Shown: one piece after another, positions 797 through 2,382 of the stretch
How the letters are laid out: every line of letters starts with the position of its first letter
Numbering within the stretch: position 1 is the stretch's first letter
Source of the DNA: the human T2T-CHM13v2.0 reference genome, Homo sapiens
Direction: 5' to 3' (one strand)
Assembly (NCBI RefSeq): GCF_009914755.1
Contig: NC_060929.1
Length of the DNA: 64,000 nt
Program-made: the position numbers and the translations under genes
The notes under the pieces: model-generated
What the model was told of the DNA's origin: nothing
Database searches by the model: none
What the model saw: the letters and a program-made list of their open reading frames with translations, nothing else

Positions 797-2382
797 TCCT
801 GAACGGTAATGCCTAGGTTTTCTTCTAGGGTTTTTATGGTTTTAGGTCTAACGTTTAAGTCTTTAATCCATCTTGAATTGATTTTTGTATAAGGCGTAAG
901 GAAGGGATCCAGTTTCAGCTTTCTACATATGGCTAGGCAGTTTTCCCAGCACCATTTATTAAATAGGGAATCTTTTCCCCATTGCTTGTTTTTCTCAGGT
1001 TTGTCAAAGATCAGATGTTGTAGATATGTGGCGTTATTTCTGAGGGCTCTGTTTTGTTCCATTGATCTATATCTCTGTTTTGGTACCAGGACCATGCTGT
1101 TTTGGTTACTGTAGCCTTGTAGTACAGTTTGAAGTCAGGTAGTGTGATGCCTCCAGCTTTGTTCTTTTGGCTTAGGATTGAGTTGGTGATGAGGGCTCCT
1201 TTTTGGTTCCATATGAACTTTAAAGTAGTTTTTTCCAATTCTGTGAAGAAAGTCATTGGTAGCTTGATGGGGATGGCATTGAATCTGTAAATTACCTTGG
1301 GCAGTATGGCCATTTTCATGATATTGATTCTTCCTACCCATGAGCATGGAATGTTCTTCCATTTGTTTGTATCCTCTTATTTCATTGAGCCGTGGTTTGT
1401 AGTTCTCCTTGAAGAGGTCCTTCACATCCCTTGTAAGCTGGATTCCCAGGTATTTTATTCTTGGTGAAGCAATTGTGAATGGGAGTTCACTCATTATTTG
1501 GATCTCTGTTTGTCTGTTGTTGGTGTATAAGAATGCTTGTGATTTTTGTACATTGATTTTGTATCCTGAGAGTTTGCTGAAGTTGCTTATCAGCTTAAGG
1601 AGATTTTGGGCTGAGACAATGGGGTTTTCTAGATATACAATCATGTCATCTGCAAACAGGGACAATATGACTTCTTCTTTTCCTAACTGAATACCTTTTA
1701 TTTCCTTCTCCTGCCTAATTGCCCTGGCCAGAACTTCCACACTATGTTGAATAGGAGCGGTGAGAGAGGGCATCCCTGTCTTGTGCCAGTTTTCAAAGGG
1801 ACAAAAGCCAAAATTGACAAATGGGATCTAATTAAACTAAAAAGCTTCTGCACAGCAAAAGAAACCACCATCAGAGCGAACAGGCAACCTAAAAAACGGG
1901 AGAAAATTTTCACAAACTACTCATCTGACAAAGGGCTAATATCCAGAATCTACAATGAACTCAAACAAATTTACAAGAAAAAAACAAACAACCCCATCAA
2001 AAAGTGGGCGAAGGACATGAACAGACACTTCTCAAAAGAAGACATTTATGCAGCCAAAATACACATGAAAAAACGCTCATCATCATTGGCCATCACAGAA
2101 ATGCAAATCAAAAGCACAATGAGATAGCATCTCACATCAGTTAGAATGGCAATCATTAAAAAGTCAGGAAGCAACAGGTGCTGGAGAGGATGTGGAGAAA
2201 TAGGAACAGTTTTACACTGTTGGTGGGACTGTAAACTAGTTCAACCATTGTGGAAGTCAGTGTGGCGATTCCTCAGGGACCTAGAACTAGAAATACCATT
2301 TGACCCAGCCATCCCATTACTTGGTATATACCCAAAGGATTATAAATCATGCTGCTATAAAGACACATGCACACGTATGTTT
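797..2382 (+). mobile_element. L1PA3-like LINE-1 fragment, 5'-truncated and 5'-inverted, 3' end deleted
   Basis: 797-1800 is antisense ORF2 RT region ([13 protein letters not shown] in ORF 1135..1773). 1801-2382 is sense ORF2 C-terminus ([17 protein letters not shown]..., [14 protein letters not shown]). About 50 nt of L1 is missing between the two pieces. It ends at ...CACACGTATGTTT with no 3' UTR, poly(A) or right TSD. Confidence 0.93.

What the first reader, a model, noticed from the sequence alone, without database searches (positions are those of the whole stretch)
2074..2171. Two L1s 35 kb apart share a 98-bp cluster of seven private variants including an ORF2 stop
Seen: L1 2074-2171 (+) and L1 36776-36873 (-) both carry C2074, T2086, C2096, G2114, G2127 (TAG stop), T2137 and G2171; both translate [19 protein letters not shown] and KKSGSNRCW. 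The L1s at ~41.4 and ~43.6 kb have the usual [20 protein letters not shown]..; the one at ~44.8 kb shares only one of the seven changes. Outside this tract I see no comparable sharing between the two elements. Inference: a short ectopic gene-conversion tract between inverted L1 copies without crossover (satellite orientation between them is unchanged), or conversion from a third donor. An alternative is a shared source element whose ORF2 stops before the Cys-rich domain and would need trans-complementation.
Basis: partly seen in the sequence, partly recalled or inferred. Interest (0 to 1): 0.75.

Follow-up and report, generated by a model that had tools for sequence, protein, structure and literature searches.

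The report
Gene-conversion patch between two dead L1s
Two broken LINE-1 copies 35 kb apart next to the chromosome 5 centromere share a roughly 100-base patch of seven rare mutations that a genome-wide search found in no other copy, most likely because one copy served as the repair template for the other, an ordinary known process with no expected function here.

Summary
L1 A (forward part 1800-2382, +) and L1 B (36109-37115, -) share all seven variants. Elsewhere in the 551-bp overlap they differ at 24 sites and share only one CpG change. A 57-mer holding four of the variants (up to 2 mismatches) occurs only at A and B genome-wide, against 17,031 hits for the common state. A and B look like independent insertions of different L1 age classes, with different junctions. 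B carries an 84-bp 3' transduction from chr10, where no L1 now sits upstream. This argues strongly against a shared stop-codon source needing trans-complementation. The stop (ORF2p Y1112) has no consequence, because both copies are fragments. Best reading: one short intrachromosomal non-allelic gene conversion (98-120 bp) between inverted copies without crossover, probably late in A's history. The direction is unresolved. Gene conversion between transposable elements is well known, so this is a clean new instance of a known kind. A mild C:G>G:C excess in the tract (post hoc p about 0.02-0.03), a second weaker tract and a converted LTR pair nearby are side leads.

The parts
800..1799 (-). L1 A, 5' inverted ORF2 segment (twin-priming structure); younger-class (L1PA2-like, name recalled) alleles
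   Evidence: younger-class state at 5 of 6 discriminating sites; 4 of the 5 classifiable among 6 fetched top genome-wide relatives have the young 3' UTR
1800..2382 (+). L1 A, forward ORF2 segment; 3' UTR, poly(A) and 3' target-site copy are missing and it joins alpha satellite directly (later deletion inferred)
785..799 (+). A-rich alpha-satellite end directly 5' of A, presumed 5' target-site copy (inferred; no 3' copy survives)
2074..2171 (+). Shared tract in A, minimal extent (maximal 2061-2180)
2125..2127 (+). Shared in-frame TAG at the codon for ORF2p Y1112, upstream of the C-terminal Cys/His knuckle; no function in a fragment
   Evidence: numbering of PDB 8uw3_A
36776..36873 (-). Shared tract in B, minimal extent (maximal 36767-36886); one B-only change at 36795
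36109..37115 (-). L1 B, 5'-truncated 1.0-kb copy with middle-class (L1PA3-like, name recalled) 3' UTR; no target-site duplication seen at its 5' junction
35993..36076 (-). 3' transduction of B: 84 bp, 79 of 84 identical to chr10:52,727,012-52,727,095, between two poly(A) runs and containing an AATAAA signal; no L1 within 8 kb upstream of the chr10 site

Best explanation
Two independently inserted, non-functional L1 fragments in monomeric alpha satellite share a 98-120-bp patch of rare mutations, likely because a germline break in one was repaired off the other by intrachromosomal non-allelic gene conversion without crossover. Shown: the shared alleles, their confinement to the tract, their absence from other copies in this genome, the separate junctions and age classes of A and B, and unchanged satellite orientation between them. 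Inferred: the seven changes first accumulated in one copy after insertion; the other copy's broken end invaded it, copied about 100 bp and returned, which would leave the 35 kb between the inverted copies uninverted; 2152 then changed in B, or escaped conversion. One difference in 120 bp (0.4% per lineage, 95% interval 0.01-2.3%) against A's 2.8% private divergence places the event probably late in A's history. Direction is open.
For: 7 of 8 B variants in the tract are shared with A, against 1 of 16 outside (Fisher p = 2e-4); order permutation p = 8e-4; null maximum 2 in 435 unbiased pairs and 3 in 1,653. The variant 57-mer has 2 hits genome-wide against 17,031 for the common state; the next-best copies over the tract are 96% or less. 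Six of the seven alleles occur in 0 of 29-32 unbiased copies and T2137 in 3 of 33. A and B fall in different age classes and have different flanks; no non-L1 sequence match of 86% or more over 100 bp links their flanks. Tract size fits the 50 to several hundred bp estimated for interlocus conversion (PMC3924818, passages).
Against: 35 kb is beyond the under-10-kb range where Alu-Alu conversion is reported to be raised (PMC6598467 section 4; PMC8230782 passages), and closer L1s lie 4-8 kb from B. Seven changes in 98 bp is dense: P(7 or more) = 0.02 at A's rate and 0.05-0.12 at B's, softened to 0.05-0.24 for 120 bp. No unconverted state (ape orthologue or other human haplotype) could be examined. 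A's class is typed indirectly because it lacks a 3' UTR, and 3 of 22 middle-class copies share its key allele at 880.
Confidence: 0.85

Rival explanations
1. Both copies were converted by, or copied from, a third L1 donor that has since been lost or is absent from this haplotype.
For: It would explain the high density of changes if the donor was more diverged; L1 loss in this lineage is real, since B's own source site is empty.
Against: Needs two events with matching borders; no third carrier among more than 17,000 copies.
Confidence: 0.05
2. An assembly or polishing error copied one L1's alleles onto the other.
For: The tract is short-read sized and includes a 91-bp exact match; no second assembly was available to test.
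Against: The flanks are divergent monomeric satellite that long reads anchor uniquely (inference); the copies still differ inside the tract at 2152.
Confidence: 0.04
3. A and B are sister insertions from one source L1 that carried the seven changes and the ORF2 stop, mobilised in trans.
For: B's source is a lost element at chr10 whose sequence cannot be read; A has lost its 3' end, so a shared transduction cannot be checked; in the overlap outside the tract no site firmly separates the classes except 2060.
Against: A types young and B middle class; the only two carriers are 35 kb apart, with about 5 of 17,000 copies that local; the shared changes are clustered rather than spread; A's closest relatives carry none of them, bar one different allele at 2127.
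Confidence: 0.03
4. B and A's forward part come from one insertion by a local inverted duplication.
For: A lacks a 3' end and B lacks a 5' end and target-site duplication.
Against: B's 3' junction sits at a different satellite site and strand from A's 5' junction; 24 differences lie outside the tract against 1 inside; flanks are unrelated.
Confidence: 0.03

Closest known systems
Non-allelic gene conversion between transposable-element copies (Alu-Alu, LTR-LTR; PMC6598467 section 4 read, PMC8230782 passages read)
   Same: A cluster of derived alleles shared by two paralogous copies over a short tract, donor-like copy nearby, copies of different subfamilies, about 95% identity (inside the 89-100% range given in PMC8230782).
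   Different: L1 rather than Alu or LTR; 35 kb apart and inverted; no polymorphism or orthologue data here, so donor and recipient are not assigned.
L1-mediated gene conversion (Tremblay et al. 2000, title and a one-sentence citation seen in PMC1920257; an intrachromosomal L1 conversion at one human locus in PMC1920257, passage read)
   Same: An L1 segment overwritten from another chromosomal L1; short tracts; same-chromosome donor.
   Different: Those are an induced break in mouse cells and a 377-bp segment in a non-classical insertion; this is a natural tract in pericentromeric satellite.
Interlocus gene conversion in human segmental duplications (PMC10172114, abstract and passages) and conversion in crossover-suppressed centromeres (PMC2834711, abstract; maize)
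   Same: Non-reciprocal exchange between paralogues without crossover; C-to-G transversion excess reported in duplications.
   Different: Those tracts are kilobases long in near-identical duplications, or allelic in maize; here homology is only 551 bp at 95.5%.
L1 3' transduction (established mechanism, recalled; the classic papers were not held)
   Same: Unique flank between two poly(A) runs, ending about 20 nt after AATAAA, mapping to one source locus.
   Different: The source locus has no L1 in this genome, so the source element was probably never fixed or was lost.

Membership tests
Non-allelic gene conversion tract | Local excess of shared derived alleles, bounded by ordinary divergence | tested here: met
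   7 shared and 1 different inside; 1 shared and 24 different outside; p = 8e-4
Non-allelic gene conversion tract | Alleles private to the pair, not a sub-lineage signature | tested here: met
   2 hits against 17,031; at most 2 of the 7 in any of the 63 panel loci with coverage
Non-allelic gene conversion tract | Copies of independent origin | tested here: met
   different age class and junctions; A's class is typed indirectly
Non-allelic gene conversion tract | No associated crossover | tested here: met
   satellite orientation uniform between the copies except a 111-bp foldback; an inversion that later reverted is not excluded
Non-allelic gene conversion tract | Non-reciprocal transfer shown by an unconverted ancestral state | not testable with these tools
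   no relatives or other haplotypes held (header)
Non-allelic gene conversion tract | Donor and recipient assignable | tested here: inconclusive
   mutation density favours B as donor about 2-4.5-fold; site 2080, where 20 of 25 of B's nearest relatives differ from both A and B, leans the other way
Trans-mobilised defective L1 source lineage | Dispersed siblings carrying the ORF2 stop haplotype | tested here: not met
L1 3' transduction | Unique donor flank between poly(A) runs with a poly(A) signal | tested here: met
L1 3' transduction | Source L1 present upstream at the donor locus | tested here: not met
   no L1 match in the 8 kb upstream; an empty site is compatible with a lost source

The most novel reading that the evidence does not exclude
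This pericentromeric block is a local hot zone of break-associated ectopic conversion between scattered retroelements: at least three tracts in 84 kb (A-B at 35 kb, a weaker one between the L1s at 2.8 kb and 8 kb upstream, and the LTR pair), and the A-B tract records two steps, a C:G>G:C-rich mutation cluster made by error-prone break repair and then copied into the partner. L1 pairs in monomeric alpha satellite would then serve as a dated readout of non-crossover repair beside human centromeres.
Probability: 0.12. Interest if true: 0.55.

Novelty: new member of a known kind. Interest (0 to 1): 0.22.

Why it matters
For function it does not matter: both copies are dead fragments in gene-free satellite. 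It is a clean, datable example of L1-to-L1 conversion across 35 kb in a region where crossovers are suppressed, and a caution that L1s used to date alpha-satellite layers can be mosaics. It would matter more if a genome-wide count showed such tracts enriched beside centromeres. B's transduction also marks a source L1 that is absent from this genome.

Tried and rejected
Chance sharing: rejected. Sub-lineage signature: rejected. Reading B's source directly through its transduction: the site is empty, so the test gave no alleles. Direction from class-diagnostic sites: no firm diagnostic site lies within 2061-2180; site 2080 is ambiguous because B's four-site haplotype is also a parsimonious intermediate. 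Mean distance of A to the classes did not separate young from middle (4.9% against 4.7%); only site-by-site typing and nearest relatives did. Segmental duplication of the flanks: none at 86% or more over 100 bp. Functional meaning of the stop: rejected, as A has no 3' end and B only the last 1 kb. The panel is biased: 28 loci were chosen for likeness to the tract, 29 for likeness to B's 3' part and 6 for likeness to A's inverted part; only the last 35 were used for allele frequencies. Ten paper searches listed no paper on this locus; the library lacks most subscription papers and four wanted papers were not held, so absence from print is not shown. No supplements were read; centromere annotation tables could list these L1s.

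Full report
Observation. The window is monomeric alpha satellite on one strand, interrupted by L1 fragments and an LTR. L1 A has an inverted ORF2 segment at 800-1799 and a forward segment at 1800-2382, the twin-priming layout, and ends in satellite without 3' UTR or poly(A). L1 B lies on the minus strand at 36109-37115. They overlap over 551 bp at 95.5%. The stop is at ORF2p Y1112 by alignment of the homologous window copy to PDB 8uw3_A. The exact match runs 2061-2151, 91 bp, and differences at 2060 and 2181 bound the tract at 98-120 bp.

More than chance. I built a panel of 63 L1 loci from genome searches; 35 were not chosen on the tract. In these, six of the alleles occur in 0 of 29-32 covered copies and T2137 in 3 of 33. 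The largest number of shared rare alleles in any 98 bp was 2 among 435 unbiased pairs and 3 among all 1,653 pairs; A-B has 7. Along the overlap, 8 shared and 25 differing sites fall in an order with permutation p = 8e-4, and 7 of 8 B variants in the tract are shared against 1 of 16 outside (Fisher p = 2e-4). A 57-mer with four of the variants, allowing 2 mismatches, occurs only at A and B in the 3.1-Gb genome; the common-state 57-mer under the same setting occurs 17,031 times. The next-best copies over the tract reach 96% (only 40 candidates scored in each).

Separate origins. The panel splits into three classes by 3' UTR sites; the names L1PA2-, PA3- and PA4-like are recalled and come from no call. 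B has the middle-class state at all six sites that separate it from the young class. A has no UTR, but its inverted part has the young state at 5 of 6 discriminating sites. Of the top 6 of its 39 listed genome-wide relatives, 4 have the young UTR, 1 the old, and 1 has no coverage; none has any of the seven alleles. Against this, mean distances did not separate the classes and 3 of 22 middle-class copies share A's allele at 880. The junctions differ, and the satellite flanks show no match of 86% or more over 100 bp. B carries an 84-bp 3' transduction matching one other place, chr10:52,727,012-52,727,095, at 79 of 84, ending about 20 nt after an AATAAA. No L1 lies in the 8 kb upstream of that site, so B's source is absent from this genome and cannot be read.

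Mechanism. Shared alleles in two independent copies require non-reciprocal copying. The copies are inverted, so a crossover would flip the 35 kb between them; the satellite is not flipped, apart from a 111-bp foldback belonging to another L1 insertion. The likely course: mutations accumulated in one copy; a break in the other was repaired by strand invasion and about 100 bp of synthesis off it; the strand returned without crossover. One difference in 120 bp gives 0.4% per lineage since the exchange (95% interval 0.01-2.3%), against private divergence of 2.8% for A (41 of 1,484) and 4.2% for B (38 of 909) outside the tract, so the event is probably late. Direction is unresolved: density favours B as donor 2-4.5-fold, while site 2080, where 20 of 25 of B's nearest relatives carry the other base, leans to A as donor, though B's haplotype is also a plausible intermediate. 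The stop codon is a passenger.

What remains odd. Seven changes in 98 bp is somewhat dense (P = 0.02-0.12, or 0.05-0.24 for 120 bp). Three of the seven are C:G>G:C, against 7 of 79 private changes elsewhere in A and B (post hoc p = 0.02-0.03). C-to-G-rich germline clusters associate with breaks and gene conversion (bioRxiv 10.1101/140111, abstract and passages), and duplications show a C-G transversion excess (PMC10172114, abstract and passages). With n = 7 and no strand coordination this is a lead only. The distance exceeds the under-10-kb range of raised Alu conversion (PMC6598467, section 4).

Comparison. Conversion between transposable-element copies is documented for Alus and LTRs, with the same signature of clustered derived alleles and an identifiable partner (PMC6598467 section 4; PMC8230782 passages). 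L1-mediated conversion is described in cell culture and at a human locus (PMC1920257 passages; the original cell-culture paper was not held). Most tract estimates are 50 to several hundred bp (PMC3924818 passages). Conversion without crossover in centromeres is shown in maize (PMC2834711 abstract). Passages of PMC12240836 and PMC13192797 were seen and hold nothing on this locus. My ten searches listed no paper on this tract, which does not show that it is unpublished.

Verdict. Real, well supported, and ordinary in kind: a new instance of non-allelic gene conversion between two dead L1 copies (confidence 0.85; interest 0.22). Ape orthologues would settle direction and date.

Noticed in passing
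window 35993-36076 (-); L035 8013-8096 (chr10:52,727,012-52,727,095): B's 3' transduction maps to a chr10 site with no L1 upstream: a source element absent from this genome, presumably unfixed or lost.
   Followed up: partly
window 63264-64000, continuing into L037 (window-scale 63264-64210 and 72143-73105): Two direct LTRs 8.9 kb apart, probably one provirus (HERV-K/LTR5 type, label recalled; interior not examined). They differ by 45 events in the first 383 bp but only 8 in the last 564 bp, with exact runs of 163 and 270 bp (p about 1e-11): likely LTR-to-LTR conversion, which would distort LTR dating.
   Followed up: partly
window 2805-3265 and L036 4486-4937: Two young-class L1s 8 kb apart share two alleles seen in 0 of 16 young copies, 65 bp apart, plus a third near an indel, with exact runs of 86 and 152 bp: a weaker candidate conversion tract.
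   Followed up: partly
window 33537-33769: The L1 at 33768-34345 has at its 5' end a 23-bp inverted L1 piece followed by an inverted copy of about 105 bp of its own upstream satellite (94% identical): a foldback palindrome, probably made during insertion.
   Followed up: partly
window 40570-41657: Twin-primed young L1 whose 159-aa ORF2 piece is identical to human ORF2p in the PDB: a very recent insertion, possibly polymorphic.
   Followed up: no
window 800-45600: At least six of the L1 insertions in and near the window have 5' inversions (800, 2805, 25250, 33645, 40570, 42889 and the one in L036), which looks high against the roughly one in five recalled for L1; not counted against a control.
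   Followed up: no
window 2382 and 37115: A's 3' end and B's 5' end both join satellite through short microhomology with no target-site copy, suggesting later deletions; a link to the conversion event is not shown.
   Followed up: partly
window 36294-36583 and 33768-34345: B and the L1 at 33.8 kb share three rare alleles spread over 290 bp among 44 differences; not clustered, probably chance or sub-lineage.
   Followed up: no
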